From an uncultured Candidatus Saccharibacteria bacterium (GTDB taxonomy: Bacteria; Patescibacteriota; Minisyncoccia; Phycocordibacterales; UBA9988), in assembly GCA_964401135.1 (NCBI GenBank), contig CAYNXC010000001.1:210264-274263 (forward strand): a stretch of 64,000 nucleotides of DNA, written 5' to 3'. Below are positions 6,847 through 46,016 of this stretch, piece by piece. A model generated the notes under the pieces. The model searched no databases. It was not told the DNA's origin and was given only the letters and a program-made list of their open reading frames with translations. The position numbers and the translations under genes were made by a program. Numbering within the stretch: position 1 is the stretch's first letter; each line of letters starts with the position of its first letter.

Positions 6847-7230
6847 TTACAGCATAATATCTTCTAGGCATTCTATTGTAATCACTTCCCCTTGGCTGTC
6901 CAGTGTCACAGAGTAAGCATCAATCTGCCACACAACCTCCTCCCCTACCCTCTTGTCCAATAGGTAGGTCTGGATAATACGGGAGAGACGCTTGCGCTTC
7001 CACCTATGTATATTTTCAAAGGCTTCATAGTCTCTGGGGCTCCCTGTTACATGTGTAACAGTCTTAACCTCTATAAAATGAATACAGTCCTTATATTTAC
7101 TTACGATGTCTAGCTCTCCCCACGGTCTGAGATAATTTCGATCTAAAATGATGTGCCCAGCGTCAATCAATCTGTCAGATATGACATTTTCACCAACATC
7201 TCCTATCTTTCTTTTTTCTGTATCAGACAT
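6847..7230 (-). CDS. YraN-family (UPF0102) endonuclease
   Basis: GDVGENVISDRLIDAGHIILDRNYLRPWGELDIVS....IHFIEVKT matches the YraN PD-(D/E)xK-like core. Confidence 0.7.
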   Translation of the reverse strand: MSDTEKRKIGDVGENVISDRLIDAGHIILDRNYLRPWGELDIVSKYKDCIHFIEVKTVTHVTGSPRDYEAFENIHRWKRKRLSRIIQTYLLDKRVGEEVVWQIDAYSVTLDSQGEVITIECLEDIML

Positions 7231-7374
7231 GTTTCTTATGAAACACTTATGATTTCCTATACAAGATGACCTTTGTCCATGAGAATATCCTTATTTTTAG
7301 CCAATTTGATTTTATCCTATCTGTCTTTTATACACAGTATACACAGATTTATCCACAAAGAGACTGTCTTTTTG

Positions 7375-7445
7375 TGCGGGCAGGGAGAATCGAACTCCCA
7401 TATCCTGCTTGGAAGGCAGGTGTTCTACCATTAAACCATGCCCGC
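7375..7445 (-). tRNA. tRNA-Gly (anticodon UCC)
   Basis: Acceptor GCGGGCA/TGCCCGC, anticodon stem CCTGC/GCAGG with loop CTTCCAA. Confidence 0.8.
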
Positions 7446-7460
7446 TTTCTCTTTTCCTTG

Positions 7461-7532
7461 TGTCCCCGGCAGGACTCGAACCCGCAACGCATGGTCCGAA
7501 GCCATGAATGATATCCATTTCACCACAGGGAC
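7461..7532 (-). tRNA. tRNA-Arg (anticodon UCG)
   Basis: Acceptor GTCCCTG/CGGGGAC, anticodon stem CATGG/CCATG with loop CTTCGGA, T-arm GCGGGTTCGAGTCCTGC. Confidence 0.7.
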
Positions 7533-7586
7533 AGTGGTAATACCTAGCATATCATAGCTAAGCAAGGAAAAATACAGTACCATGAC

Positions 7587-9059
7587 ATGATGATACAGAA
7601 AGGGGATATACCGGCTCTCATCCAAAAAACCTCTCACACCCTTGAGAAGGCTGGTTTTGAGGCGTATATCGTTGGGGGTTGTGTACGAGATCTCGTAATG
7701 GGAAAGGAGCCACACGACTGGGATATCACTACAAGAGCGCGCCCGGATGAGATTATTGCACTTTTTGAGAAGACATTTTACGAGAATACCTACGGCACAG
7801 TCACGGTTGTTACCGAGGATGCAGAAGAGACACTCCGCCATATCCAAATTACTCCTTTTAGAGAGGAGGGTCAATACAGTGACTCACGACATCCAGATTC
7901 TGTTACTTTTGGCACTTCTATTGAGAATGACCTAGGGAGGAGGGATTTCACCATGAATGCGATCGCGTACCGGCCAGAGACCGATGTCTTTATTGACCCA
8001 TTTGGTGGACTAAAGGATATAAAGGACAACTGCATACGGGCGGTTGGGGATCCTATTGAACGATTGGAGGAGGATGCTCTGCGTAGTATACGGGCGATCC
8101 GTTTTGCGTCTACATTTGGCTTCTCTTTAGATGAAAAGACTTTCTCGGCCATTAAAAAAATGGCTAAAAATATAAAGAAACTCTCTACTGAGCGAATCCG
8201 TGATGAGTTTGAAAAGATTATCCTCTCTCCAGAACCACAAAAAGGACTCTTGCTTGCGGAGTCACTTGGGGTGTTACATGAGATAGCACCGGAGTTAGAA
8301 GAAACTATTGGCGTTAAACAGAACGGAGACCACCCATATCCAGTATGGGAACATATCCTCAAAGCAGTACAGCACTCGGCAGAGAGGAATTTCCCATTAG
8401 AAGTACGCTTTGCGGCTTTATTTCACGACATTGGCAAGCCTCGGACCAGAGATTTTTCACGTGAAAAGAATGATTACACCTTTTACGGGCATGATGTGCT
8501 TGGTGCACGAATGGTTAAAAAGATACTAACTCGCCTCAAGTTTCCCGTGAAAACAATAGAATCGGTCGAAAAATTGGTGAGATACCATATGTTCTTTACT
8601 GATATAGAGAAAATAACCCTCTCGGCTGTCCGCCGTATTGTCCGAAATGTTGGACCAGAACGAGTATGGGATCTGATGAAGGTGCGTGCTTGTGATCGAA
8701 TGGGGATGAATAGGCCAGTAGAAGAGCCATATCGCTTACGGAAATATGAGTCCATGATTGAAGAAGCCTTACGGGATCCCACCTCTGTAAAGATGCTCAA
8801 AATCGATGGTAAGCGGATTATGGATGTTACACAAGAAACACCTGGCCCAAAGATAGGATTTATCCTCCATGCGCTCTTAGAAGAAGTACTGGACGACCCC
8901 TCACTAAACACCGAGGAGTATCTTGAAAAGAAGGCGCAGGAGCTAGTAAGACTCACCGAAGAAGAGCTGAAGAAGCGGGGAGAAAGTGGAAGACAAAAGA
9001 AAGGAGAAGTAGAAGAGGGAGAACTTAAGAAAATACGATCAAAGTATCGTGTAAAATAA
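7587..9059 (+). CDS. cca: CCA-adding tRNA nucleotidyltransferase with HD domain
   Basis: PolyA-polymerase head motif GGCVRDL..DWD and an HD domain (HDIGK). KE-rich C-terminal tail. Confidence 0.8.
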   Translation: MMIQKGDIPALIQKTSHTLEKAGFEAYIVGGCVRDLVMGKEPHDWDITTRARPDEIIALFEKTFYENTYGTVTVVTEDAEETLRHIQITPFREEGQYSDSRHPDSVTFGTSIENDLGRRDFTMNAIAYRPETDVFIDPFGGLKDIKDNCIRAVGDPIERLEEDALRSIRAIRFASTFGFSLDEKTFSAIKKMAKNIKKLSTERIRDEFEKIILSPEPQKGLLLAESLGVLHEIAPELEETIGVKQNGDHPYPVWEHILKAVQHSAERNFPLEVRFAALFHDIGKPRTRDFSREKNDYTFYGHDVLGARMVKKILTRLKFPVKTIESVEKLVRYHMFFTDIEKITLSAVRRIVRNVGPERVWDLMKVRACDRMGMNRPVEEPYRLRKYESMIEEALRDPTSVKMLKIDGKRIMDVTQETPGPKIGFILHALLEEVLDDPSLNTEEYLEKKAQELVRLTEEELKKRGESGRQKKGEVEEGELKKIRSKYRVK

Positions 9060-9060
9060 A

Positions 9061-9092
9061 AAACCCTCCCGTTGTCTGTTGGGGAGGGCTGC
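9061..9092. terminator. Hairpin CCCTCCC-N-GGGGAGGG after the cca stop
   Basis: Strong GC stem. The minus-strand orientation is followed by a TTTTTTATTTT tract. Confidence 0.4.
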
Positions 9093-9259
9093 GTTGGCTA
9101 TTTGTCTTATAGAACAAAGAAATTATCTGAAACAAGGGTGGAGAACCTCTATTTAGTGTTCTTTGTCTTAAAAGACAAAAAGGCCTCTGCGTAAGGACAA
9201 ATCATATCTGTCCTTTATTGTACTTTGTCCTTTATATCCGTCAACTCAGTTATCCACAA
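9093..9259. repeat. Repeat-rich intergenic region 3' of xerD
   Basis: Inverted repeat TTTGTCTTAAAAGACAAA, direct repeats of GTCCTTTAT, and several TTGTC/GACAA half-sites. Confidence 0.4.
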
Positions 9260-10180
9260 TTAACCCTTCCGCCCTTTGGCGTGAAAGTTTTGGTGTATCT
9301 CTTTGAGATGCTTATCGGTAACATGGGTATAGATTTGCGTGGTAGAGACAGAAGAGTGACCTAACATCATCTGCACCGACCGGATGTCTGCGCCATTTTG
9401 TAACAAGTCTGTTGCAAATGAGTGGCGTAGGATGTGTGGAGTCATCTTTTTACCAATGCCCGCCTTGACTGCGTACTGTTTTACTATCCGTTCAATACTC
9501 CGCGAGGTAAGGCGCTCACTCTTATTCTTATTGATAGTTGAGAGGCCAACAAAGAGTGCATCCTCCATATCCTTTCTCTTCTTTAAGTACTCATGGAGAG
9601 CATCCTTAGCAGAAGGGGAGAGAAAGACGACGCGGACCTTTTCACCCTTACCGCGAACAGAGAACTCATCCCGCGAGAGATCGATGCTGTCGGTATTGAG
9701 CGAACAGAGCTCCGATACGCGCAAGCCAGTAGAAAAGAAGAGCTCTAGGATTGCCCGGTCGCGGAGCCCTTTTGCTTGGGTAGTATCTGGGGCAGAGAGG
9801 AGGCGTTCTAACTCCGTACCTGAGACAAGATCAAGGTTGCGTGCTGGTGTTTTTGCCAGCTCAATGGTGTCTGGCGCCAGAGAGCTGATCTTTCGCTTCA
9901 CTAGATATCGGAGAAAGGCGCGTAAAGCAATGAGATGATAGTTCTGGGTGTTTCTCTTGAGCGTACCGCCATACTTTTGCCTATTCTCCTGACGATTGAG
10001 CCAGAGACGGTATGAGCGCACAAGCTCCTCTGTTATCAGAGAAGCATCGTCAATACTCGTTTGCTTAATAAAACGAGAGAGATAGCGATCATAATTCTCA
10101 ACTGTTTTGAGGCTACGGCCCTTCTCTATCTCCAGATATTCCAAAAACTCTCGTTTAAGAGCCGTAATATTGTGCGACAT
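9260..10180 (-). CDS. xerD: Tyrosine site-specific recombinase XerC/XerD family
   Basis: C-terminal catalytic motifs HILRHSFAT and LGHSSVSTTQIYTHV (R-H-R-Y signature). Confidence 0.8.
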   Translation of the reverse strand: MSHNITALKREFLEYLEIEKGRSLKTVENYDRYLSRFIKQTSIDDASLITEELVRSYRLWLNRQENRQKYGGTLKRNTQNYHLIALRAFLRYLVKRKISSLAPDTIELAKTPARNLDLVSGTELERLLSAPDTTQAKGLRDRAILELFFSTGLRVSELCSLNTDSIDLSRDEFSVRGKGEKVRVVFLSPSAKDALHEYLKKRKDMEDALFVGLSTINKNKSERLTSRSIERIVKQYAVKAGIGKKMTPHILRHSFATDLLQNGADIRSVQMMLGHSSVSTTQIYTHVTDKHLKEIHQNFHAKGRKG

Positions 10181-10244
10181 TGCTTCAGTATAGAGGTAAG
10201 GGGGGAACCTTGCAAAGTCTAAAGTTCTATGCTACTATTGCCCC

Positions 10245-10484
10245 ATGCTTGCTACTAAGAAAAAGCAGACGGTAATCAAAAAGTCACAGGTACACGACAC
10301 GGACACTGGCTCTTCTGCTGTGCAGATTGCGCTCCTGACGGAACGGATTGAGACTCTCGCCAGGCACTTGAAGAAAAACGCCAAGGATAATCACTCCCGC
10401 CGCGGCCTCCTCAAGATGGTTGCTGATCGTCGCATACATCAAAAGTATGTAGATAAGCAGACCAAGAAAGCTAAAATAAAATAA
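10245..10484 (+). CDS. rpsO: 30S ribosomal protein S15
   Basis: [28 protein letters not shown] is the canonical S15 motif. Confidence 0.9.
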
Positions 10485-11008
10485 TGCCTGTTATTAAGCA
10501 CAGCGACCAGCGCGTGGGAGTCTTCATAGACACCCAGAACCTTTACCATAGTGCAAAAAACCTCTATAAAGCCCGAGTCAACTTTGGCAATATTGTTAAA
10601 GATGCGGTAGGGAGTCGCCGCCTTGTGTGCGCGCTCGCCTATGTTATTACTACCGAGGGCGGTGAAGAAAAAAACTTTTTTGAGGCACTCGCTAAAGTAG
10701 GGATAGAGACAAAGACGAAGGATCTGCAGGTCTTTGCTGGAGGGGCAAAGAAAGCGGACTGGGATGTGGGGCTTGCCGTTGATGTGATTATGTTTGCCCC
10801 CAAATTGGACTCTGTTATCCTCGTGACCGGAGACGGGGACTTTATCCCGCTCGTTGAGTACCTTCAGCGCACCTTCGGCATACAGGTGGAAGTCTTCTCA
10901 TTTGGCAAAAGCACTTCCGGAAAGCTCCGTGAGGCGGCAGACAGCTTTACCGACCTCTCCGAGAACCCTCGCCGCTACCTCATCCCCGTCAGAAACGGAG
11001 GGAAATAA
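10484..11008 (+). CDS. NYN-domain (LabA-like, PIN-related) protein
   Basis: VGVFIDTQNLYHSA...VTGDGDF are NYN/DUF88 signature residues. The start overlaps the rpsO stop (TAATG). Confidence 0.7.
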   Translation: MPVIKHSDQRVGVFIDTQNLYHSAKNLYKARVNFGNIVKDAVGSRRLVCALAYVITTEGGEEKNFFEALAKVGIETKTKDLQVFAGGAKKADWDVGLAVDVIMFAPKLDSVILVTGDGDFIPLVEYLQRTFGIQVEVFSFGKSTSGKLREAADSFTDLSENPRRYLIPVRNGGK

Positions 11009-11014
11009 TATAGT

Positions 11015-11500
11015 ATGGAATATCACACTCTATCATTTAAAAAAGATAGGGATGCAGTATCGGAACCTCCAAAATTTTTATATTGGATAGTATTTGACGG
11101 GAATCATACAGACTGCGCTTTTGATGAAATTGCCCTAAAAGCAAGCTCTGAAAAAGATGGTGTTTACCCACTCGTGGTTTGTGGGTGTGGCTATATTGGC
11201 TGTAATGGTATGTATGTCACAACTCGTATTGAAAAAGATGATGTAATCTGGGAAAAATTCTGGCAAGGACAATGTTGTGGGGAAACAGAAAAAGACGACG
11301 AATTATCGGAATTTTCCTTAATTAAGAATAGTGCAAAAGGGAAAAATATTACATTAAAACCGCCTGTAAAATTTCATCTCGGTGAATATCGTGACCTTAT
11401 AGAAACAATAGAGCATGATATAAAAAGTGATCCGATCAGTAGTAAAGAATATGATGAAGCTCTTTCATATTATAAAGATGGTAATGTTTTTAGAATGTAA
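11015..11500 (+). CDS. Hypothetical Cys-rich protein in a low-GC islet
   Basis: 161-aa ORF in a markedly AT-rich stretch, containing CGCGYIGCNG and QGQCCGE Cys clusters. Confidence 0.45.
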   Translation: MEYHTLSFKKDRDAVSEPPKFLYWIVFDGNHTDCAFDEIALKASSEKDGVYPLVVCGCGYIGCNGMYVTTRIEKDDVIWEKFWQGQCCGETEKDDELSEFSLIKNSAKGKNITLKPPVKFHLGEYRDLIETIEHDIKSDPISSKEYDEALSYYKDGNVFRM

Positions 11501-11502
11501 AA

Positions 11503-12006
11503 ATGAATTGGCTATCTAAATTTTTTTTAACATACGGCTTCGGCTCAGTTGGATCCATTGCAAAATGGATGGCAGTGAACTATACAAAAGCTAAGAAAAA
11601 ATTTCCAAAAAAAACTCACCGAGAATTATTACTGCACCTTATTGAACTGCGATACCCAAATGGTAAAGCGATAATAGGCCCTGAACGACTGCCTGAACCG
11701 AGCATGGCAATAATTGAAAAATGCCAAGGATCTTTGGAAAAAATCACTATGTATATAGAACATCTGGAACACAATGAATTGGATGAAGTAAAAATAACTC
11801 GACCATATTTATATAGGGCCGTAAAAAAAATAGTTCGGGAAAGATTAAATAAATTTGCTCCTGATATTAAGAGAGATTTAATAGATGATGCCCTTGAAGT
11901 TTTTAAATCTGGCAAGGGAATTAAGAATGACAATTGGAGTATTGAACCTATAGCAAAAAACTTTTGCTCAATATCTTTTCCAGAAGATAAAGAAACGGAG
12001 AAGTAG
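11503..12006 (+). CDS. Hypothetical protein in a low-GC islet
   Basis: 167-aa ORF, AT-rich, two nucleotides after the previous gene. No recognisable motif. Confidence 0.45.
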   Translation: MNWLSKFFLTYGFGSVGSIAKWMAVNYTKAKKKFPKKTHRELLLHLIELRYPNGKAIIGPERLPEPSMAIIEKCQGSLEKITMYIEHLEHNELDEVKITRPYLYRAVKKIVRERLNKFAPDIKRDLIDDALEVFKSGKGIKNDNWSIEPIAKNFCSISFPEDKETEK

Positions 12007-12037
12007 ACAATTTCTCTTATTCAATCTTAATAATTCC

Positions 12038-12820
12038 TCACGGATTACTACGCGGTAAAGTAGTATAAAATTGATGTACGATTTCTTTCATGTCTTTCAG
12101 TAATTTTATTAGAACCGCATCGACTATTTCTTGAGGGATATTCTTGTAAAATGCTTCAGCGATTGCACCAGAAATACATGCGAGAGTATCGCTGTCTCCT
12201 CCGAGAGTTATCGCATTCCGTACTGCACTTTCAAAATCAGTAGACTCTAAAAAGCACATGATGGCTTCTGGGACTGTTTCTTGACAGGTTTCATTAAAAA
12301 AATATGTTGTCCTGATTTCTTTCAGAGTGCGGCCAAGATCATAATCAAATATTTTTTGGATACTTTGAGTTATATCTTTTTTAGTGACGCCACTTCGAGA
12401 TAAAAAGATTGAAAGAGCAACCGCTTGTGCCCCTTTTATTCCTTCTGAATGATTATGACTTACTTCTGCGCTCTTTTTTGCTTCTCTTAAAACCTGATCT
12501 TCGTTGTGAAAAAACCATCCAATAGAGCTTACGCGCATTGCTGAACCGTTACCGTAGCTGTTGTAGGGTTGTGGATCACGAGACTTAATCCATGAATAAA
12601 AACGGTCTCCATATCCACGATCTAAGTATTTTTGCCCCCATTCTCGCATCGTCAAACCATATTCCTTATGATTTAAAATGGCGTCAGCAACAGCAATTGT
12701 CATAACAGTATCATCAGTAAAATCTGATTCTGTATTAAATAAAGAAAAATCAGGATTAGCACGCTTATATTCAAAAGGTGACCCAATTATGTCCCCAATG
12801 ATTGCCCCTAACATCATCAC
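12038..12820 (-). CDS. ADP-ribosylglycohydrolase (ARH/DraG family)
   Basis: N-terminal GAIIGDIIGSPFE, GNGSAMRVSSIG, and C-terminal GGDSDTLACISGAIAEAFY (dimetal-binding Asp/Thr motifs). Confidence 0.75.
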   Translation of the reverse strand: MMMLGAIIGDIIGSPFEYKRANPDFSLFNTESDFTDDTVMTIAVADAILNHKEYGLTMREWGQKYLDRGYGDRFYSWIKSRDPQPYNSYGNGSAMRVSSIGWFFHNEDQVLREAKKSAEVSHNHSEGIKGAQAVALSIFLSRSGVTKKDITQSIQKIFDYDLGRTLKEIRTTYFFNETCQETVPEAIMCFLESTDFESAVRNAITLGGDSDTLACISGAIAEAFYKNIPQEIVDAVLIKLLKDMKEIVHQFYTTLPRSNP

Positions 12821-12870
12821 ACTGTAATCTTATTCTGAAGTAATACAAATGGCTTCTATCTTGGAGATTC

Positions 12871-12898
12871 TAGACATGTTGGTTTGCAATGCTATACT
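12871..12898 (+). promoter_or_regulatory. Candidate sigma70-like promoter for pnp (TAGACA-16-TATACT)
   Basis: Hexamers read directly from the sequence with a 16-nt spacer, about 95 nt upstream of the pnp start. Confidence 0.3.
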
Positions 12899-12942
12899 CT
12901 CCACATTAGCCAGTAATTAATAATGGTGGTCAGCGGATAGGA

Positions 12943-12980
12943 GGTCCGAAACGAGGGTTTCGAATCTAAATTCGAGGACC
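12943..12980 (+). promoter_or_regulatory. Structured pnp leader hairpin (nested GGTCC...GGACC / CGAAAC-GAGG-GTTTCG)
   Basis: Nested perfect stems immediately upstream of the pnp start. Analogous position to PNPase autoregulatory leaders. Confidence 0.35.
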
Positions 12981-12991
12981 ACTACAGCGTT

Positions 12992-15232
12992 ATGGAGAAA
13001 AAAGAATACTCAATGGAGTTGGGAGGCAAGACCCTGACGGCAACTTTTAGTGACCTCGCCGATCAGGCGCAGGGCTCAGTACTGATTAAGCACGGCGAGA
13101 CCGTCGTACTTGTCACAGCGGTGATGAGTAAGGATGCGAAGGAGGCAGCTGGATACTTCCCGCTCACTGTTGATTACGAAGAAAAGTTCTACGCCACCGG
13201 CCGTATCTTGGGGAGTCGTTTTGTAAAACGAGAGGGAAGGCCATCTGACGAGGCCATCCTCACCGGTCGAGTAGTAGACCGTACTATCCGTCCACTCTTT
13301 GATAGCCACATCAGAAACGAGGTACATGTGGTGGTGACAGTCCTCTCTATAGATGAAGAGAACGACCCCGATGTGCTTGGGATCATTGGCGCATCTCTCG
13401 CGCTCGGCACTTCAGAGATCCCGTGGAATGGCCCCGTCTCAGCCGTCCGCATTGGAGCAAAAGAGATGAGCTCTCCCTTTATGGTGACTCCCGGGTACTC
13501 CGAGAGAGAGCAGTGTGCCTTTGACCTGCTCATATGCGGGAAGGATGGCTCAATCAACATGATAGAAGCAGAAGCAACCGAGATTCCTGAAGCACGGATC
13601 AGCGAGGCCTTTGCGCTTGCTATTACAGAGCTTGCCAAGATTGAAGCATGGCAAAAGAGCATCATCATCGAGCGAGGAAAAAAGAAACTTTCCCTGCCTA
13701 AACCAGTACTTGCCCCAGAGATTATTGCAATCTTTAAGAAAGAAATTGAGCCGAAACTTGATTCGGCCATCTTTAGCGGAGCAGGGAAAGAGGCAATCCA
13801 CGCGCTTGAGGAGGAATGGATGACGCTCATTTTGGGACAATCCCCTGATGCGCCAAAAAATGACGCCTTGGATTACTATATGGATTCGGTCAATAACCTC
13901 CTCCACACAGAGGCAATCACAAAAAAGCGCCGTGCTGATGGCCGGAAGGTTGACGAGGTACGACCTCTCTTTGCGCAAGCGGGAGGACTCTCAAGTATCG
14001 TCCATGGAGCAGGATTCTTTTACCGTGGCGGGACACACATCCTCTCGGTACTCACTCTCGGGAGCCCTAAGGACTCACAAGTAATTGAGGGTATGGAAGT
14101 GCGCACTAAGAAGTACTTTATGCACCACTACAACTTCCCTCCATTCTCTTCAGGAGAGACCGGACGCATGGGGGGCACCAATCGTCGTGCCATTGGCCAC
14201 GGCGCACTTGCAGAAAAGGCGCTCCGTGCAGTCATCCCTCCAAAAGAGAAGTTCCCTTACAGTATCCGCATCGTGTCAGAGTCAATGGCCTCAAACGGTT
14301 CCACCTCAATGGGGAGCGTTTGCGGAAGTACCTTAGCCCTCATGGATGGTGGCGTACCGATTAAAAATCCTGTTGCAGGGATTGCGATGGGGGTGATGAT
14401 GGGGAATAACGGAGTCGAGCTTCCAGAGGGATGTCCGACTCCGTACCAGATACTCACCGACATTCAAGGCCCAGAAGATGAGCATGGCGATATGGACTTT
14501 AAGGTTGCGGGAACCAAGGAAGGGGTAACCGCTATCCAACTAGACATCAAAGTGGGGAGCATTCCCGTTGCAATCTTAAATGAGGCTCTCGACGGAGCGA
14601 GGGCCGCGCGGCTTCACATTCTAGAGACTATTACCACTGCAATCCCTGCGCCTCGCGCAGATCTAGCGCCCTCCGCACCGCGAATCATCCAAATCAGTAT
14701 CCCTGTTGAGAAGATTGGCGCAGTCATCGGCTCGGGAGGGAAGGTGATCAACTCAATTATTGAAGATACCGGTGCAGACATTGAGATAGAGGACGATGGA
14801 ACAGTCTACATCTCCGGCATGGTAGAGGCGGTGACAAAGGCAAAAGAGACTGTTGAGGGGATAACTCACGAGTACCAAGTAGGAGAGCGCTTTGAGGGAG
14901 AGGTAATCAAAGTATTGGACTTTGGCATTGTGGTAAAAATTGGACCAACACAAGAAGGACTCGTGCACATTTCAGAGATAGCGCCCTATCGCATTGATAC
15001 TGTAACTGGGTTCTTCTCCGTAGGAGAGAAAGTGCCGGTTGCCATCTGTGGACTTGACCCAGAGAAGGGAAAAGTAAGTCTCTCTATTAAAGATGCCGAT
15101 CCGAGCCTTGCAGAGAAAAAAGGCTTCACTCGTTCCGCCAGTATGGGATATAATGGGAGTGATCATGGACACACATCAGAAGAACGCAGGGGGAGACGCG
15201 GCGGCGGCAGACCCGGTAGCTCTGGACGATAA
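12992..15232 (+). CDS. pnp: Polynucleotide phosphorylase/polyadenylase with a Gly/Arg-rich C-terminal tail
   Basis: Two RNase PH domains (FPLTVDYEEKFYATGRI..; FSSGETGRMGG), then KH (GAVIGSGGKVIN) and S1 (GEVIKVLDFGIVVKI) domains. The RGRRGGGRPGSSGR tail is unusual. Confidence 0.9.
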   Translation: MEKKEYSMELGGKTLTATFSDLADQAQGSVLIKHGETVVLVTAVMSKDAKEAAGYFPLTVDYEEKFYATGRILGSRFVKREGRPSDEAILTGRVVDRTIRPLFDSHIRNEVHVVVTVLSIDEENDPDVLGIIGASLALGTSEIPWNGPVSAVRIGAKEMSSPFMVTPGYSEREQCAFDLLICGKDGSINMIEAEATEIPEARISEAFALAITELAKIEAWQKSIIIERGKKKLSLPKPVLAPEIIAIFKKEIEPKLDSAIFSGAGKEAIHALEEEWMTLILGQSPDAPKNDALDYYMDSVNNLLHTEAITKKRRADGRKVDEVRPLFAQAGGLSSIVHGAGFFYRGGTHILSVLTLGSPKDSQVIEGMEVRTKKYFMHHYNFPPFSSGETGRMGGTNRRAIGHGALAEKALRAVIPPKEKFPYSIRIVSESMASNGSTSMGSVCGSTLALMDGGVPIKNPVAGIAMGVMMGNNGVELPEGCPTPYQILTDIQGPEDEHGDMDFKVAGTKEGVTAIQLDIKVGSIPVAILNEALDGARAARLHILETITTAIPAPRADLAPSAPRIIQISIPVEKIGAVIGSGGKVINSIIEDTGADIEIEDDGTVYISGMVEAVTKAKETVEGITHEYQVGERFEGEVIKVLDFGIVVKIGPTQEGLVHISEIAPYRIDTVTGFFSVGEKVPVAICGLDPEKGKVSLSIKDADPSLAEKKGFTRSASMGYNGSDHGHTSEERRGRRGGGRPGSSGR

Positions 15233-42815: not shown

Positions 42816-42950
42816 CTACACAGCAAGCTTTTTGCGACCTTTTCGCATCCGCCGCAACAAAACACCACGCCCAGAAGAAGTCTTTGTTCTGGTAAGAAAC
42901 CCATGGGTCTTCTGCCTCTTTCTATTCTTTGGATTATAGGTAAACGACAT
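42816..42950 (-). CDS. rpmH: 50S ribosomal protein L34
   Basis: Own translation: [44 protein letters not shown] (44 aa). Below the ORF-track size cutoff. Confidence 0.8.
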
Positions 42951-43096
42951 ACGAATGGAGTATACAGAATGTATATACTTTTTTCAAGAGAATATACTTA
43001 TCCACCATAATCCACTCCTTATAAACATCTTGGATAGGTTTGTAGTTTAGTACTAAGAGTACTATAATCGCAACATAAAAATAACGAGCGGACCCT

Positions 43097-44440
43097 ATGG
43101 ACAACAAAGATCTTTGGGACAACGCCCTTGCGGAGATTGAAGTATATGTATCAAAAGCTAATTTTGGAACATGGTTTCGTAATACAGTAATTCTAAAGAC
43201 GGAAGGTGGGACAGTACATCTCGGAGTACCTAATGCTTTTGTGAAGGATTGGCTATCTAATAAATACCATCTTTCTATTCTTAAAGCGTTGAGAAATCAC
43301 TCTGAACAAATAAAGCATGTTGAATATATTGTTATTCGTGGAGAAAAGATAAAGATAGAAGAACTGCCAGTTAAACCCCTCTTTCGCGATCAATTAGAGC
43401 TATCTGAGTTGTATGTAAACAAAGAAGACAACTTAAACCCAAAATACATCTTTGATTCTTTTATTGTTGGACCATTTAACGAGACAGCATACGCCGCAGG
43501 ACAAGCAATCATTAAATCTCCAGGGACTACATACAATCCCTTATACATCTATGGAGGTACAGGGTTAGGAAAAACACACCTCACCCAAGCAATAGGGAAC
43601 ACCATCAAACAATTACACCCAAATAAAAAAGTTTACTACATTACTTCGGAGAAATTTGTTATCGAGGTAGTAAATGCAATTCAGAACAATAAAGCAAATG
43701 TATTCAAGGAAAAATATCGTAAGTATGATGTGTTTATTATGGATGATGTTCAATTTATTGCTAATAAAGATAAAACACAAGAAGAATTATTCCATTTATT
43801 TAATAGCCTATACGATCAAAATAAGCAGATTATTTTTTCATCAGATAAAATTCCAAAATATATACCAAACTTAGAAGAACGGTTACGATCTCGTTTTGAA
43901 GGTGGAATGATTATTGATATTGCACTACCAGACTACGAATCTCGCCTAGCAATATTAAAATCTAAGATAAAACAGAGTGATTTTTCTCCATCTGATGAGA
44001 TCATTGAATATGTTGCGTCAGTTATTAAGGGAAATATTAGAGAATTAGAAGGTGTTCTTAACTCTATTATTTGCCAATGCCAGTTAAAAAATAGAAATTT
44101 GAATTTGAGTGAGGTAAAAAACCTTATAAAAAATACCATAAAACCACAAAAAACCATCTCTATTAAGGATGTTCTTAAGATTATTGCTGGGTTTTATAGT
44201 ATTGATGAGAAGGTACTCTATGAAAAAACAAGGAGGAAGGAGGTAGTAAAACCGAGACAAATTATTATGTATATCCTCCGTGAAGATTTCAACATCTCTT
44301 ATCCTTACATTGGTCAAAAATTAGGTGGGAGAGATCACACAACTGTGATTCATGCATATGAAAAAATAAAAAAAGAAGTAAAACAGAATAATCTTATTAC
44401 ACAAGAAGTCGAACAAATACGGTCATTACTATACAACTAA
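43097..44440 (+). CDS. dnaA: Chromosomal replication initiator DnaA
   Basis: AAA+ Walker A GGTGLGKTHL, box VII, and the C-terminal DNA-binding signature KLGGRDHTTV. Confidence 0.9.
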   Translation: MDNKDLWDNALAEIEVYVSKANFGTWFRNTVILKTEGGTVHLGVPNAFVKDWLSNKYHLSILKALRNHSEQIKHVEYIVIRGEKIKIEELPVKPLFRDQLELSELYVNKEDNLNPKYIFDSFIVGPFNETAYAAGQAIIKSPGTTYNPLYIYGGTGLGKTHLTQAIGNTIKQLHPNKKVYYITSEKFVIEVVNAIQNNKANVFKEKYRKYDVFIMDDVQFIANKDKTQEELFHLFNSLYDQNKQIIFSSDKIPKYIPNLEERLRSRFEGGMIIDIALPDYESRLAILKSKIKQSDFSPSDEIIEYVASVIKGNIRELEGVLNSIICQCQLKNRNLNLSEVKNLIKNTIKPQKTISIKDVLKIIAGFYSIDEKVLYEKTRRKEVVKPRQIIMYILREDFNISYPYIGQKLGGRDHTTVIHAYEKIKKEVKQNNLITQEVEQIRSLLYN

Positions 44441-44657
44441 TATGTATAACTTGTGAATTATTAGTGAATAAAAAGTAGATAGTAAATTTTAAAAATAAAA
44501 AAATAAAAGATAATTCACTTACATACATACCTTATGTTCATACTATATCCACAATTCATAATAGTAAAAAATTAACACTAAACTCCTTTATAAGACTTAT
44601 CCACTTTATCAACAATACTAATAGTAATAAGTATTTAAAAAAAAGAATTTAATTATT
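44441..44657. other. Candidate oriC: AT-rich dnaA-dnaN intergenic region with DnaA-box-like 9-mers
   Basis: More than 80% AT. Contains ATATCCACA (44555-44563), TTATCCACT (44597-44605) and TGTGAATTA (44453-44461). Further boxes TTATCCACC, TAATCCACT and TGGATAGGT lie upstream of dnaA (42998-43039). Confidence 0.5.
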
Positions 44658-45752
44658 ATGAAAGTAGAATGTGTAAAAGAAAAACTAAAGGACGCATTAC
44701 TTACTGCTGATCGTATTACAGGTAAAAATTTATCGCTCCCCATCCTTTCTTATATTTATCTGCGAGCAATAAAAAATAAAATAATTATTAGATCAACAAA
44801 CCTTGATATTGGTGTTGAGATTATACTACCAGCAAAAGTAGTGAGAGAAGGACTAGTTGTTGTTCCTGGTTCATTACTTATTTCTGTACTATCAAATTCA
44901 ACCCATGAGATGATTACCCTTGAAGAAGTGAATGGTAATATAACAATTACTACACCAAATTTAAATACAATTATTAAGAGTGTCCCGAGTGATGATTATC
45001 CAAATTTACCTAAAAACGAAACAAGTGATGAGTATACACTACATACTTCACTCCTTACTTTAGGTATACAATCTGTTGTATTTGCGGCCTCATTGAGTGA
45101 TATTAAACCAGAAATAGCGAGTGTTTATATCTACTCTCACGACTCTCAATTATTATTTGTTTCGACTGATGGATTTAGATTGGCTGAAAAAAAGTTTCCA
45201 ATAAAATTATCACATGAATTTAAAGCCATTATTCCTTATAGAAATGCACTTGAAATAGCAAAGATCTTAGTTGGAAGTGATGAAGATTCTAAGATATTAC
45301 TCTCACCATCACTTATATCAATTCAAAGTGGGAACTATACTATTACTTCACGACTTATTGATGGGGTATATCCAGATTATCCACAATTAATACCATCATC
45401 ATTTTCTACTACATCAAGAATACCAAAACAGGACCTTGTAAACACATTACGACTCGCTCATATTTTTTGTGATAGAACAAATCAAATTCAACTTACTATT
45501 CAAGTGAGTGAAGCACTTTTTATGATTTATTCTCAAAATACTGAGAAGGGTGAATACTCGTCATCATTACAGTCAATTGTTGATGGTGAAGATCTACAGA
45601 TGAATGTTAATGTACGATATTTAGTGGATATATTATCCATTCTTCACAACCCAACAGTGTTTATTGGGTGTAATGGTCGTGGTAAGCCACTTTTTGTTCG
45701 GGATGATGGTGATAATTCTTTTCTATATCTTGTCATGCCAATGAATCGGTAA
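44658..45752 (+). CDS. dnaN: DNA polymerase III beta sliding clamp
   Basis: Position after dnaA, roughly 364 aa, three-domain clamp-like pattern. Confidence 0.8.
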   Translation: MKVECVKEKLKDALLTADRITGKNLSLPILSYIYLRAIKNKIIIRSTNLDIGVEIILPAKVVREGLVVVPGSLLISVLSNSTHEMITLEEVNGNITITTPNLNTIIKSVPSDDYPNLPKNETSDEYTLHTSLLTLGIQSVVFAASLSDIKPEIASVYIYSHDSQLLFVSTDGFRLAEKKFPIKLSHEFKAIIPYRNALEIAKILVGSDEDSKILLSPSLISIQSGNYTITSRLIDGVYPDYPQLIPSSFSTTSRIPKQDLVNTLRLAHIFCDRTNQIQLTIQVSEALFMIYSQNTEKGEYSSSLQSIVDGEDLQMNVNVRYLVDILSILHNPTVFIGCNGRGKPLFVRDDGDNSFLYLVMPMNR

Positions 45753-45755
45753 TGT

Positions 45756-46016
45756 ATGAACTCAATCTCTGATTTTTTAGGTAAATTTTCACAATTTCAA
45801 GATAATCAATCTCGGATAAAAAAAACGATATCCAGTATTATTCAAAATATATCAGGGATGGATATTCCTGAAACAAATATAGATATTATAGAAGATAGAG
45901 TCTATCTTAAGGTACACCCGGCTATATTAAATGAAATACTCATTCACAAATCTGTGGTGCTAACAGAAATTGAAAAAAAAACAAAAAAAATGTATAGAAT
46001 TATCGGCTTATCGTAG
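45756..46016 (+). CDS. DUF721-like small protein (possible DciA-like helicase-loader homologue)
   Basis: 86 aa immediately after dnaN, with a pattern reminiscent of DUF721. Weak support. Confidence 0.35.
   Translation: MNSISDFLGKFSQFQDNQSRIKKTISSIIQNISGMDIPETNIDIIEDRVYLKVHPAILNEILIHKSVVLTEIEKKTKKMYRIIGLS

What the first reader, a model, noticed from the sequence alone, without database searches (positions are those of the whole stretch)
10484..12830. Low-GC three-gene islet with an ADP-ribosylglycohydrolase, inserted with a NYN-domain gene between rpsO and pnp
rpsO and pnp are normally adjacent. Here a NYN-domain gene is followed by about 1.8 kb of markedly AT-rich DNA (roughly 33-38% GC versus about 48% in the flanks). 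It encodes a Cys-rich 161-aa protein, a 167-aa unknown, and a convergent ARH/DraG-family ADP-ribosylglycohydrolase. ARH enzymes act as immunity or antitoxin partners to ADP-ribosyltransferase toxins (for example Tre1/Tri1) and appear in phage-defence and anti-defence contexts. The two unknown proteins could be the toxin or effector partner.
Basis: partly seen in the sequence, partly recalled or inferred. Interest (0 to 1): 0.6.

Follow-up and report, generated by a model that had tools for sequence, protein, structure and literature searches.

The report
Small foreign gene islet upstream of pnp
A 1.9-kb piece of foreign, AT-rich DNA carrying a stand-alone ADP-ribose-removing enzyme and two unrelated orphan genes has been dropped into a variable spot just upstream of the pnp gene of an uncultured Patescibacteria bacterium; it is a real and recently spread mini-island, but there is no sign that it is a toxin-immunity system.

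Summary
The features are real. Three ORFs sit at 11015-12817: A (161 aa), B (167 aa) and a convergent ARH (259 aa). They lie in DNA of 35.4% GC against 47.2±1.9% background (z = -6.2). Their GC3 is 23-28%, against 53-59% in the flanks.

The NYN gene is not part of the insert. The order rpsO-NYN-pnp is conserved in 46 of 65 related Paceibacteria loci. The true insert is about 11009-12871, between the NYN stop and the pnp -35 box. The closest relatives, L017 and L048, have the empty site.

A second lineage (L014) carries the same islet at the same place. There the islet is 90-91% identical in DNA while the housekeeping flanks are 80-81% identical (pS 0.10-0.33 against 0.55-0.74). The islet therefore spread laterally after the lineages split.

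The ARH has intact metal-binding motifs and is under purifying selection. It belongs to a very large, promiscuous family that also occurs in phages, and I found no conserved neighbour.

A and B occur elsewhere without each other and without ARH. Family A is rare, matches phage family phrog_8242, and recurs next to restriction-modification genes on mobile DNA.

Verdict: a mosaic accessory islet with an orphan ARH. The toxin-partner idea is not supported. Interest is modest.

The parts
10245..10484 (+). rpsO (ribosomal protein S15). Native left flank, not part of the islet.
   Evidence: Pfam Ribosomal_S15 2.7e-23. GC3 0.56.
10484..11008 (+). NYN-domain (LabA-like) nuclease gene. Native and clade-conserved between rpsO and pnp. 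Not part of the islet.
   Evidence: Pfam NYN 2.6e-33. Its start overlaps the rpsO stop. The order S15-NYN-PNP is found in 46 of 65 related loci. GC 51%. dN/dS against L014 is 0.018.
11009..12871 (.). The inserted islet proper: 1863 bp, 35.4% GC.
   Evidence: Boundaries come from alignment with the empty sites of L017 and L048. Composition z = -6.2. DNA identity to L014 is 90-91%, against 80-81% for the flanks.
11015..11500 (+). Gene A: 161 aa, acidic (pI 4.9). Core motif DGxYPxxxCxCGxxGCxGxYV...WEKF...PLxFxxxEY. Rare family, remotely related to phage family phrog_8242.
   Evidence: No Pfam, NCBIfam or PADLOC hit. 34 representatives in 1.84e9 proteins. Invariant residues are C58, C63, G65, W79, P117 and Y125. 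13 of 26 members hit phrog_8242. dN/dS 0.20.
11503..12006 (+). Gene B: 167 aa, basic (pI 9.3). The conserved core is about residues 1-125. The C-terminal tail lies in a 169-bp segment that L014 lacks.
   Evidence: No family hits. Only 2 relatives found by homology search. The tail is absent in P0004, P0005 and L014. dN/dS 0.58. pI.
12038..12817 (-). ARH/DraG-family ADP-ribosylglycohydrolase, 259 aa, convergent with B. A GTG at 12820 is an alternative start.
   Evidence: Pfam PF03747 7e-36, covering residues 2-230. phrog_6572 1.6e-61. Motifs GDIIGSPFE 8-16, TDDT 34-37, GNGSAMR 89-95 and GGDSDT 206-211 align to the metal-site motifs of MJ1187 and ARH3. dN/dS 0.14.
12818..12853 (-). ARH 5' upstream segment that travels with the ARH gene. 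Its role as promoter or 5'UTR is inferred.
   Evidence: Nearly identical between the window and L014 up to about 12853, after which the two diverge.
12871..12898 (+). Native pnp promoter-like site: TAGACA, 16 nt, TG-TATACT. It marks the right edge of the insert.
   Evidence: Promoter scan scores 10 of 12 with an extended -10. Conserved in L014, L017 and L048.
12924..12984 (+). Conserved long hairpin in the pnp 5' leader. Native and left intact by the insertion.
   Evidence: MFE -29.6 kcal/mol, z = -3.3, and none of 200 shuffles folds as well. In the consensus structure across 6 relatives, 6 of 22 pairs show compensatory changes.
12992..15232 (+). pnp (polynucleotide phosphorylase). Native right flank.
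   Evidence: Pfam RNase_PH, KH_1 and S1. 80 related loci were recovered.

Best explanation
The feature is a 1.86-kb horizontally acquired mosaic islet (about 11009-12871). It sits in the few bases between the stop codon of a native NYN nuclease gene and the -35 box of the native pnp promoter, in a Paceibacteria (Patescibacteria, near Candidatus Vogelbacteria) genome.

The NYN-pnp spacer is a permissive, variable site in this clade. The islet carries three cargo genes that move independently elsewhere.
1. The ARH is a stand-alone ADP-ribosylglycohydrolase of a very large, promiscuously transferred family that phages also carry. It has its own upstream region and lies on the opposite strand.
2. 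Gene A belongs to a rare family of small acidic proteins with a three-Cys cluster. That family is related to phage family phrog_8242 and is found repeatedly beside restriction-modification genes on mobile DNA.
3. Gene B is a small basic orphan.

Shown: the foreign composition, the empty sites in the closest relatives, the presence of the same islet in a more distant lineage with much lower synonymous divergence than the flanks (a recent lateral spread), purifying selection on A and ARH, and intact ARH metal-site motifs.

Inferred: A and B are expressed by read-through from rpsO-NYN, since no terminator is seen, the gaps are 6 nt and 2 nt, and all four genes share a strand. Also inferred: the ARH works as an orphan eraser that removes ADP-ribose put on cell components by foreign ADP-ribosyltransferases (from phages or competitors). 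That would make it an antitoxin-like enzyme without a cognate toxin, rather than half of a toxin-immunity pair. A and B are unrelated conflict-type or ORFan cargo.
For: Composition:
- GC 35.4% against 47.2±1.9% background, z = -6.2. GC3 0.23-0.28 against 0.53-0.59 in the flanks.

NYN is native:
- S15-NYN-PNP is found in 46 of 65 loci. The median NYN-pnp gap is 253 bp.

Empty sites and junctions:
- L017 (PNPase 89% identical) and L048 (81%) are empty. The junctions lie right after the NYN stop and at the conserved pnp promoter.

The site is variable in the clade:
- Other genomes hold different cargo there. L025 has a 1.7-kb, 24%-GC insert with a ParE toxin. L028 has 5 kb of other genes. L023 and L083 hold yet others.

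Recent lateral spread:
- Window against L014, pS is 0.325 (A), 0.095 (B) and 0.299 (ARH), against 0.55-0.74 for rpsO, NYN, pnp, xer and cca.
- DNA identity is 90-91% in the islet and 80-81% in the flanks.
- There is no ceiling effect: pS of A and B reaches 0.78-0.90 against distant homologues.
- The window is at least as close to the islet-free L017 (pnp pS 0.57) as to L014 (0.66).
- The islet is fixed and 99.9-100% identical over the compared stretch in the 7 same-species contigs checked by blastn. Same-species contigs carrying it come from more than 10 sequencing runs.

Modularity:
- L014 has an extra 1.1 kb with three small ORFs between ARH and pnp. It also lacks a 169-bp segment that includes the B tail.

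Independence of the three genes:
- A and B occur elsewhere without each other or ARH.
- ARH neighbours differ in every sampled locus.

ARH:
- Motifs are intact and dN/dS is 0.14.
- Phage relatives are 47-52% identical. The phrog_6572 match is 1.6e-61.

Background from the literature:
- Orphan antitoxin-like de-ADP-ribosylases are a described strategy (PMC11825919).
- An ARH-like DarG3 antitoxin has been reported (PMC13069673).
- ARHs outnumber ARTs in bacteria (PMC8120803).
Against: - No substrate, activity or phenotype is known for any of the three proteins. The orphan-eraser role is inferred from family membership and the lack of a partner.
- No mobility machinery was found. There is no island integrase (the upstream Xer-type recombinase is native in all relatives), no tRNA at the junction, and no convincing flanking repeats. 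How the islet reached the same spacer twice is therefore unexplained.
- No tract of raised identity is seen in the flanks, as simple homologous replacement would predict.
- Low GC alone is not proof of foreign origin in this genome. dnaA and dnaN have GC3 of 0.27 and 0.18.
- Only a handful of ARH and family-A neighbourhoods were sampled.
- The rest of the 64-kb window was not screened for ART genes.
Confidence: 0.6

Rival explanations
1. One reading: the three genes form one toxin-immunity or toxin-antitoxin system. A or B is a novel ADP-ribosyltransferase toxin or effector, and the ARH is its cognate immunity or antitoxin enzyme.
For: - The three genes travel together in two lineages.
- ARH-fold proteins do serve as immunity or antitoxin proteins: Tri1 (PMC8120803) and DarG3 (PMC13069673).
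- A and B have no assigned family, so a novel ART cannot be excluded by annotation.
- B is basic and small, with many conserved His, Arg, Tyr and Glu residues among its 3 known sequences.
Against: - A and B homologues occur without ARH and without each other.
- Close ARH homologues have unrelated neighbours and no ART Pfam family beside them.
- The family sizes differ by orders of magnitude.
- Family A has no invariant Arg/His or Glu.
- The ARH is convergent with A and B rather than co-oriented in one operon.
- It has no Tri1-type N-terminal extension, since the Pfam domain starts at residue 2. It scores 38.8 bits against the Tri1 cut-off of 490.
- PADLOC finds no hits.
- B shows relaxed constraint (dN/dS 0.58), and its 3' end is variable.
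Confidence: 0.07
2. The islet is a remnant of phage or mobile-element DNA whose genes are counter-defence cargo. A would be an anti-restriction or RM-modulating protein. ARH would be an eraser of defence-system ADP-ribosylation (DarT-like or other ART defences). Both are now domesticated or simply stranded in the chromosome.
For: - ARH matches phage family phrog_6572 at 1.6e-61. Relatives 47-52% identical occur in Bacteroidota phages and IMG/VR contigs.
- 13 of 26 family-A members match phage family phrog_8242, with a best E-value of 2.4e-7.
- Family-A genes lie beside RM genes on elements with a serine recombinase, an HTH_17 excisionase-like gene and FtsK/HerA-type ATPases.
- Phages are known to carry orphan antitoxin-like de-ADP-ribosylases (PMC11825919).
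Against: - No phage structural, replication or integrase genes lie in or next to the islet.
- No family-A relative was found in 2.9 million viral contigs or 50,697 phage genomes by direct search.
- The window's own protein A does not reach significance against phrog_8242 (E = 0.13).
- The ARH family is mostly chromosomal in diverse bacteria.
- A counter-defence gene has no obvious use to a cellular host.
Confidence: 0.18
3. The ARH is an acquired metabolic or housekeeping accessory. It might hydrolyse free or protein-linked ADP-ribose derivatives, O-acetyl-ADP-ribose or NAD-derived products, or reverse an endogenous regulatory ADP-ribosylation. A and B are functionless or unrelated ORFans that hitch-hiked.
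For: - The family is huge and chromosomal in cyanobacteria, Bacteroidota and others.
- In Pseudanabaena it lies 2 genes from a NUDIX/NrtR-type NAD regulator and directly follows a PP2C phosphatase gene.
- ARH-family enzymes hydrolyse OAADPr and several ADP-ribose linkages (PMC8120803).
- B shows relaxed selection.
Against: - Sampled neighbourhoods are inconsistent and often look like variable or defence regions: a NERD helicase, AAA_14/DUF4143, VWA, a protein kinase and phage early regions.
- The gene is absent from the closest relatives, so it is not needed for core metabolism.
- A is under purifying selection (dN/dS 0.20), so it is not junk.
Confidence: 0.15

Closest known systems
Short (~255-260 aa) stand-alone ADP-ribosylglycohydrolase family proteins (Pfam PF03747; PHROG phrog_6572), as annotated in Pseudanabaena, Bacteroidota, Porphyromonas phage phage005 and Bacteroides phage Versailles
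   Same: Full-length similarity of 47-62% identity, the same length, and the same TDDT and GGDSDT metal-site motifs. Single-domain with no extension.
   Different: None of these has a known substrate or role. Here the gene sits in a Patescibacteria chromosome inside a foreign islet. The nearest homologue outside the two islet-bearing Patescibacteria lineages is only about 60% identical.
Tri1, the ARH-fold immunity protein of the T6SS ART toxin Tre1 (Serratia proteamaculans)
   Same: Same DraG-like fold family. The idea of enzymatic reversal of a foreign ART's modification would apply.
   Different: NCBIfam Tri1 equivalog scores 38.8 bits against a cut-off of 490. There is no N-terminal toxin-occluding extension and no adjacent recognisable ART.
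DraG (ADP-ribosyl-[dinitrogen reductase] hydrolase)
   Same: Same Pfam family and the same E-D-D metal-site logic (PMC8120803).
   Different: TIGR02662 scores 49.9 bits against a cut-off of 337. No draT or nitrogenase context was seen between about 6.8 and 17.3 kb of the window. Our ARH is about 30 aa shorter than the 287-position DraG model.
Orphan antitoxin-like de-ADP-ribosylases (phage AdfN NADAR proteins, DarG2-like macrodomains) and the ARH-like DarG3 antitoxin of DarHTG
   Same: The concept is the same: an ADP-ribose eraser encoded without its toxin, acting on whatever ART placed the modification (PMC11825919). An ARH-like fold used as an antitoxin has a precedent (PMC13069673).
   Different: AdfN and DarG1 are NADAR-fold and DarG2 is a macrodomain. 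No DarT or helicase lies nearby, PADLOC is negative, and activity on ADP-ribosylated DNA is untested.
Small genomic islets or variable hot spots between conserved core genes (integration hot spots carrying TA and defence cargo)
   Same: - Atypical composition.
- Presence/absence among close relatives.
- Different cargo at the same site in other genomes, including a ParE-type TA in L025.
- A mosaic, modular structure.
   Different: - No integrase, tRNA target or flanking repeats.
- Only 1.86 kb.
- The site is the <=10-nt gap between a gene stop and a promoter.
PHROG phrog_8242 (phage proteins of unknown function), for gene A
   Same: 13 of 26 family-A members match it over profile positions 51-178 of 181, including the Cys motif.
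   Different: The window's own A reaches only E = 0.13. No function is known for the PHROG. No direct tblastn hit to deposited phages was found.

Membership tests
ARH / DraG-like ADP-ribosylglycohydrolase (PF03747) | Sequence match to the family model above the curated threshold, over the full domain | tested here: met
   124.8 bits against a cut-off of 26.2. Residues 2-230 match profile positions 2-286 of 287. phrog_6572 1.6e-61.
ARH / DraG-like ADP-ribosylglycohydrolase (PF03747) | Binuclear-metal-site motifs: an N-terminal G-D-x-x-G-x-x-x-E, T-D-D-T, and a C-terminal G-G-D-[ST]-D-T | tested here: met
   GDIIGSPFE 8-16, TDDT 34-37 and GGDSDT 206-211. The last two align to the corresponding motifs of ARH3 and MJ1187. 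The residue roles come from the literature (PMC8120803 and my own knowledge of ARH3).
ARH / DraG-like ADP-ribosylglycohydrolase (PF03747) | Hydrolysis of an ADP-ribosyl linkage | not testable with these tools
   Needs an enzyme assay.
Tri1-type ARH immunity protein (Tre1/Tri1) | Equivalog-level similarity to Tri1 | tested here: not met
   NF041672 scores 38.8 bits against a cut-off of 490.
Tri1-type ARH immunity protein (Tre1/Tri1) | N-terminal extension that occludes the toxin's active site | tested here: not met
   The ARH domain begins at residue 2 of 259.
Tri1-type ARH immunity protein (Tre1/Tri1) | Adjacent cognate ART toxin gene in the same operon | tested here: not met
   - Neighbours A and B have no ART family hit.
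- Family A lacks invariant catalytic residues.
- ARH is convergent with A and B.
- Homologues of A and B occur without ARH.
- An ART fold for B is not formally excluded.
DraG (nitrogenase regulation) | Equivalog-level similarity and a draT/nif context | tested here: not met
   TIGR02662 scores 49.9 bits against a cut-off of 337. No draT or nif genes were seen between about 6.8 and 17.3 kb of the window.
DarTG-type toxin-antitoxin defence (including ARH-like DarG3) | A DarT ART gene (and a helicase for DarHTG) adjacent to the eraser | tested here: not met
   PADLOC gives no hit for A, B or ARH. No DarT-like Pfam hit.
Type II toxin-antitoxin pair (A acidic, B basic) | The two genes co-occur as a conserved pair | tested here: not met
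   A is followed by different genes in L016, L100, L102, L116 and L118. B is preceded by a small membrane-protein gene in L015. The charge pattern (pI 4.9 and 9.3) is the only supporting feature.
Genomic island / horizontally acquired islet | Atypical base composition and codon usage relative to the host genome | tested here: met
   z = -6.2. GC3 0.23-0.28 against 0.53-0.59.
Genomic island / horizontally acquired islet | Presence/absence polymorphism among close relatives, with a definable empty site | tested here: met
   L017 and L048 are empty. The window and L014 are occupied. Islet divergence is much lower than flank divergence.
Genomic island / horizontally acquired islet | Mobility signatures: an island integrase, a tRNA target, flanking direct repeats | tested here: not met
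   The Xer-type recombinase at 9260-10180 is native in all relatives. The nearest tRNAs lie at 7375-7532, not at the junction. The only repeat spanning the islet is an 11-nt, 1-mismatch direct repeat that is absent from the empty site.
PHROG phrog_8242 (for gene A) | Significant match of the protein to the family profile | tested here: inconclusive
   The window's A scores E = 0.13. 13 of 26 family-A members match, with a best E of 2.4e-7 over most of the profile. The link is transitive only.

The most novel reading that the evidence does not exclude
Gene A may represent an unrecognised family of small proteins with a three-Cys cluster. The family has phage relatives (phrog_8242) and may be functionally tied to restriction-modification systems, either as an anti-restriction or RM-modulating factor or as an RM accessory. 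Together with an orphan ARH eraser, it would form a portable counter-conflict cassette. That cassette would spread between Patescibacteria lineages by recombination into the NYN-pnp spacer, where it is expressed from the strong rpsO operon.
Probability: 0.15. Interest if true: 0.55.

Novelty: new member of a known kind. Interest (0 to 1): 0.3.

Why it matters
As it stands, this is an ordinary small accessory islet. Three points have some value.

1. It is a clean, datable case of recent lateral spread of a gene cassette between uncultured Patescibacteria lineages into an identical site. Gene flow in these reduced-genome episymbionts is poorly documented.

2. It adds a chromosomal example to the emerging theme of ADP-ribose erasers kept without a cognate transferase. 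This ~257-aa ARH family is enormous and uncharacterised, so one biochemical assay would annotate thousands of genes.

3. Family A's repeated position beside RM genes, together with its phage relatives, makes it a cheap candidate for an anti-restriction or defence-accessory screen.

The correction that rpsO-NYN-pnp is the conserved operon in Paceibacteria also points to a lineage-specific RNA-decay module.

Tried and rejected
- **Structure route failed.** AlphaFold2 on A (4-sequence alignment) gave pLDDT 47.7. On B (3 sequences) it gave pLDDT 52.6. Foldseek against the PDB then gave nothing: best E 0.24 and 0.41, TM below 0.3. The afdb50 library was unavailable. The prediction cap stopped a re-run with the deeper alignment A5.
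- **Sequence searches for A and B found nothing usable.** Pfam, NCBIfam, PADLOC and PDB profile searches were all negative.
- **Direct searches for family A in viruses were negative.** These covered viral contigs and deposited phages. One member weakly hits phrog_3151, 'inhibitor of McrBC restriction', at E = 0.0055. I treat that as noise.
- **No conserved small partner downstream of ARH.** The ~100-aa ORFs that follow ARH in two phages and in L103/L104 are not related to each other beyond chance, nor to A or B.
- **No flanking repeats or att sites.** Only short, chance-level repeats were found.
- **The upstream tyrosine recombinase is not an island integrase.** It is native XerC/D-like and present in all relatives.
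- **No recombination tract in the flanks**.
- **No islet-free strain within the species.** Every contig carrying the identical NYN protein that extends past NYN also shows the start of the islet.
- **No literature link between ARH and Patescibacteria**.
- **Type III RM guess for L016 only partly borne out.** I guessed from memory that the genes flanking A in L016 are a type III Mod and Res. Pfam found nothing. tblastn shows the upstream fragment is the C-terminal part of a site-specific DNA methyltransferase. The downstream fragment only weakly resembles a restriction endonuclease N-terminus (E = 0.0019).

Full report
**1. What is in the sequence**

The region contains six genes:
- rpsO, 10245-10484 (+)
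- a NYN-domain gene, 10484-11008 (+), whose ATG overlaps the rpsO stop
- ORF A, 11015-11500 (+), 161 aa with 6 Cys
- ORF B, 11503-12006 (+), 167 aa
- a convergent ADP-ribosylglycohydrolase (ARH), 12038-12817 (-), 259 aa, with a GTG at 12820 as an alternative start
- pnp, 12992-15232 (+)

Pfam confirms Ribosomal_S15, NYN (2.6e-33), ADP_ribosyl_GH (7e-36, residues 2-230) and the PNPase domains. It finds nothing for A or B. NCBIfam, PHROGs and PADLOC also give nothing significant for A and B.

The GC dip is real. It is 31-39% in 300-nt windows across 11100-12900, against 47-54% on either side. For the 1863-bp stretch 11009-12871, GC is 35.4% against a background of 47.2±1.9% (z = -6.2). GC3 is 0.23, 0.27 and 0.28 for A, B and ARH, against 0.56, 0.59 and 0.53 for rpsO, NYN and pnp.

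**2.

The window comes from a Patescibacteria (Paceibacteria) genome close to Candidatus Vogelbacteria MAGs. Its PNPase is 89% identical to L017 and 81% to L048.

I recovered 80 related pnp loci. Of the 65 with at least 1.5 kb upstream, 47 have the NYN gene directly upstream on the same strand, and 46 have the full order S15-NYN-PNP. NYN identity is 59-95%, and the median NYN-pnp gap is 253 bp. NYN also has native composition (GC 51%, GC3 0.59) and is under strong constraint (dN/dS 0.018 against L014). NYN is therefore a resident of a clade-specific rpsO-NYN-pnp arrangement, not part of an insertion.

The two closest genomes, L017 and L048, have NYN followed after about 120-130 bp by pnp. Aligning them with the window places the left junction immediately after the NYN stop at 11008. 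It places the right junction at about 12871. There a conserved promoter-like element begins (TAGAC[A/G], 16 nt, TG-TATACT), followed by a conserved leader. The insert is thus about 11009-12871. It contains only A, B, ARH and the ARH upstream segment.

**3. It is a recently spread, mosaic islet**

One other lineage carries the same three genes at the same site. It is L014, an ENA contig of 325 kb; L099 is a near-identical JGI contig from the same lineage. The proteins are 83% (A), 85-89% (B, a truncated copy) and 90% (ARH) identical.

Between the window and L014, the native genes are at or near synonymous saturation. Their pS is 0.55-0.74 and dS is 1.0-3.0. The islet genes are not saturated: pS is 0.325 for A, 0.299 for ARH and 0.095 for B.

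At the DNA level the islet is 90-91% identical and the flanks are 80-81% identical. This is not a ceiling effect of AT-rich codons. The pS of A and B reaches 0.78-0.90 against their more distant homologues.

The window is also at least as close to the islet-free L017 (pnp pS 0.57) as to the islet-bearing L014 (0.66). Vertical inheritance with loss does not explain these numbers. The islet entered or was exchanged between the two lineages after they split.

The islet is mosaic:
- Identity to L014 is about 82-87% across A and 93-97% across B. In ARH it rises from 72% at the 3' end to 88-97%.
- L014 lacks a 169-bp segment that encodes the C-terminal about 40 residues of the window's B.
- L014 carries an extra about 1.1 kb with three small ORFs between ARH and the pnp promoter.

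Within the window's own species the islet is fixed and identical over the compared stretch. Seven contigs were 99.9-100% identical by blastn. Same-species contigs carrying the islet come from more than 10 sequencing runs.

The NYN-pnp spacer is variable in the clade. Five of 47 genomes have more than 1 kb there, with different cargo:
- L025 has a 1.7-kb, 24%-GC insert with a ParE toxin and small partner ORFs.
- L028 has 5 kb with regulator, dehydrogenase and methyltransferase-like genes.
- L023 has a membrane protein.

I found no mobility machinery. The tyrosine recombinase at 9260-10180 is native in all relatives. The nearest tRNAs are at 7375-7532. No convincing flanking repeats exist. No recombination tract is visible in the flanks. 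The route of entry remains unexplained.

**4. The three genes are independent cargo**

*ARH.* The ARH belongs to a very large family. Members are about 255-260 aa and occur in cyanobacteria, Bacteroidota, Poribacteria, Marinimicrobia and others. Outside the two islet-bearing lineages the best identity is only 57-62%.
- It matches phage family phrog_6572 at 1.6e-61.
- Relatives 47-52% identical occur in Porphyromonas and Bacteroides phages and in IMG/VR contigs.
- Its best solved relatives are MJ1187 (1.5e-17) and ARH3. The TDDT (34-37) and GGDSDT (206-211) motifs align to their metal-site motifs.
- dN/dS is 0.14, so it is very probably an active enzyme.
- It is not Tri1 (38.8 bits against a cut-off of 490) and not DraG (49.9 against 337). 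It has no N-terminal extension.
- In six bacterial loci (four independent contexts) and two phage neighbourhoods of close homologues, the adjacent genes are all different. Examples are VWA, PP2C with NUDIX/NrtR nearby, YkuD_2, a Ser/Thr kinase and phage early genes. None has an ART family, and none resembles A or B.

*Gene A.* An exhaustive profile search of 1.84 billion representatives found only 34 relatives.
- They are about 140-180 aa and mostly acidic, with a median pI of 5.1.
- They share the motif DGxYPxxxCxCGxxGCxGxYV...WEKF...PLxFxxxEY.
- The invariant residues are C58, C63, G65, W79, P117 and Y125.
- A third Cys switches between positions 56 and 64. All six sequences with G56 have C64. 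This suggests a three-Cys structural or metal site.
- No Arg/His or Glu is invariant, which argues against an R-S-E or H-Y-E transferase.
- 13 of 26 members match phage family phrog_8242 (function unknown). The best E is 2.4e-7, and matches cover profile positions 51-178 of 181. The window's own A reaches only E = 0.13.

Family-A genes elsewhere lie in these settings:
- L016: directly after the 3' end of a site-specific DNA methyltransferase (tblastn, 31-34% identity, E about 1e-24). The next ORF starts 2 nt later and weakly resembles a restriction endonuclease N-terminus (E = 0.0019).
- L100: just upstream of an HTH_17 gene that overlaps its 3' end, then a D12 Dam methylase, a SacI-like endonuclease and a large serine recombinase.
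- L116/L117 and L118/L119: about 1-3.5 kb downstream of EcoRI_methylase plus GmrSD_N/HNH genes, with FtsK-gamma or DUF87 ATPases.
- L102: among small membrane and zinc-ribbon ORFs.

None of these loci has B or an ARH.

*Gene B.* B is basic (pI 9.3) and has only two relatives found by homology search, plus the L014 copy. Its conserved core is about 125 aa, and dN/dS is 0.58. In L015 it follows a PIN-domain gene and a small membrane-protein gene, again without A or ARH.

**5. Mechanism**

Shown: a foreign, modular, recently spread cassette sits between the NYN stop and the pnp promoter. It leaves intact the pnp promoter and a conserved leader hairpin at 12924-12984 (z = -3.3, with compensatory changes in relatives).

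Inferred: A and B are transcribed by read-through from rpsO-NYN. They share its strand, the gaps are 6 nt and 2 nt, and no terminator-like site lies between them. ARH is transcribed from its own upstream segment, which travels with it.

My best functional reading is that the ARH is an orphan eraser of ADP-ribosylation, kept without a cognate transferase. It would remove modifications installed by foreign ARTs from phages or competitors. This is analogous in logic to the orphan antitoxin-like NADAR and macrodomain enzymes (PMC11825919) and to the ARH-like DarG3 antitoxin (PMC13069673). It also fits the general excess of ARHs over ARTs in bacteria (PMC8120803). A and B are separate cargo. The company A keeps suggests a role in restriction-related conflict, but that rests on guilt by association from a few loci.

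They are listed with their tests in the rival explanations.

**6. Limits**

- Structure prediction failed for A and B (pLDDT 48 and 53). Fold searches on those models were uninformative. An ART fold for B is therefore not formally excluded.
- Only a few neighbourhoods were sampled.
- The remainder of the 64-kb window was not screened for ARTs.
- Low GC is not by itself proof of foreign origin in this genome. dnaA and dnaN have GC3 of 0.27 and 0.18. The case for acquisition rests on the empty sites and the divergence contrast.

**7. Verdict**

It is wrong, or at least unsupported, about NYN and about a toxin partner.

This is a new example of a known kind: a small accessory islet with an orphan ARH. 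Two uncharacterised passenger families come with it, one of which (A) deserves a cheap experimental look. Interest is about 0.3.

Noticed in passing
window 42900-46020: A second low-GC stretch (28-34% GC) is not an accessory island. It is the replication-origin region: dnaA (43097-44440, GC3 0.27), dnaN (44658-45752, GC3 0.18) and an 86-aa ORF, next to rnpA and yidC, which have GC3 of 0.48 and 0.40. Essential replication genes about 15 GC points below the genome average suggest a xenologous replacement or a strong local mutational bias.
   Followed up: partly
window 10245-15232 and loci L017-L096: The order rpsO-NYN-pnp, with the NYN start overlapping or abutting the rpsO stop, is conserved in 46 of 65 Paceibacteria loci. 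This suggests a lineage-specific RNA-processing or decay operon: a NYN/LabA-like nuclease coupled to S15 and PNPase. A full-text search turned up no paper describing it.
   Followed up: partly
window 12871-12984: There is a conserved pnp promoter-like element (TAGACA, 16 nt, TG-TATACT) and a long 5'-leader hairpin (12924-12984). The hairpin has MFE -29.6 kcal/mol and z = -3.3. In the consensus structure, 6 of 22 pairs show compensatory changes across six relatives. It is reminiscent of the RNase III-processed autoregulatory pnp leader of E. coli. Rfam found no match in 7000-13200 apart from two tRNAs and one below-threshold match over a tRNA.
   Followed up: partly
L025:735-2406: In another Patescibacteria genome the same NYN-pnp spacer holds a 1.7-kb, 24%-GC insert with two small gene pairs. 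One pair includes a ParE-family toxin (1e-8) with an adjacent small ORF that looks like a ribbon-helix-helix (RHH) antitoxin. This supports the site as a hot spot for addiction or defence cargo.
   Followed up: partly
L116:1667-5498, L118:1-5489, L100:6001-10167: Family-A genes lie on elements that carry RM genes. L116 and L118 have EcoRI_methylase + GmrSD_N/HNH + an FtsK-gamma or DUF87 ATPase. L100 has HTH_17 + Dam + a SacI-like endonuclease + a large serine recombinase. The EcoRI_methylase-GmrSD pairing recurs in two loci whose A proteins have diverged.
   Followed up: partly
L097:5001-6102 and L098:5001-6090: In Porphyromonas phage phage005b and Bacteroides phage Versailles, the ARH is the penultimate gene of the leftward early block. 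It is overlapped at its 3' end by a ~108-aa ORF. The two small ORFs are only marginally similar (28% identity, E = 0.009).
   Followed up: partly
window 10284-10442 (-): Gene calls on most public Logan contigs of this organism list a 51-aa antisense ORF here instead of rpsO. This is very probably a gene-calling error, since the + strand ORF is a clear S15.
   Followed up: no
window 7375-7532 (-): Two adjacent tRNA genes (75.4 and 56.4 bits) lie between the UPF0102 gene and the CCA-adding enzyme gene. The ORFs listed over them are spurious.
   Followed up: no
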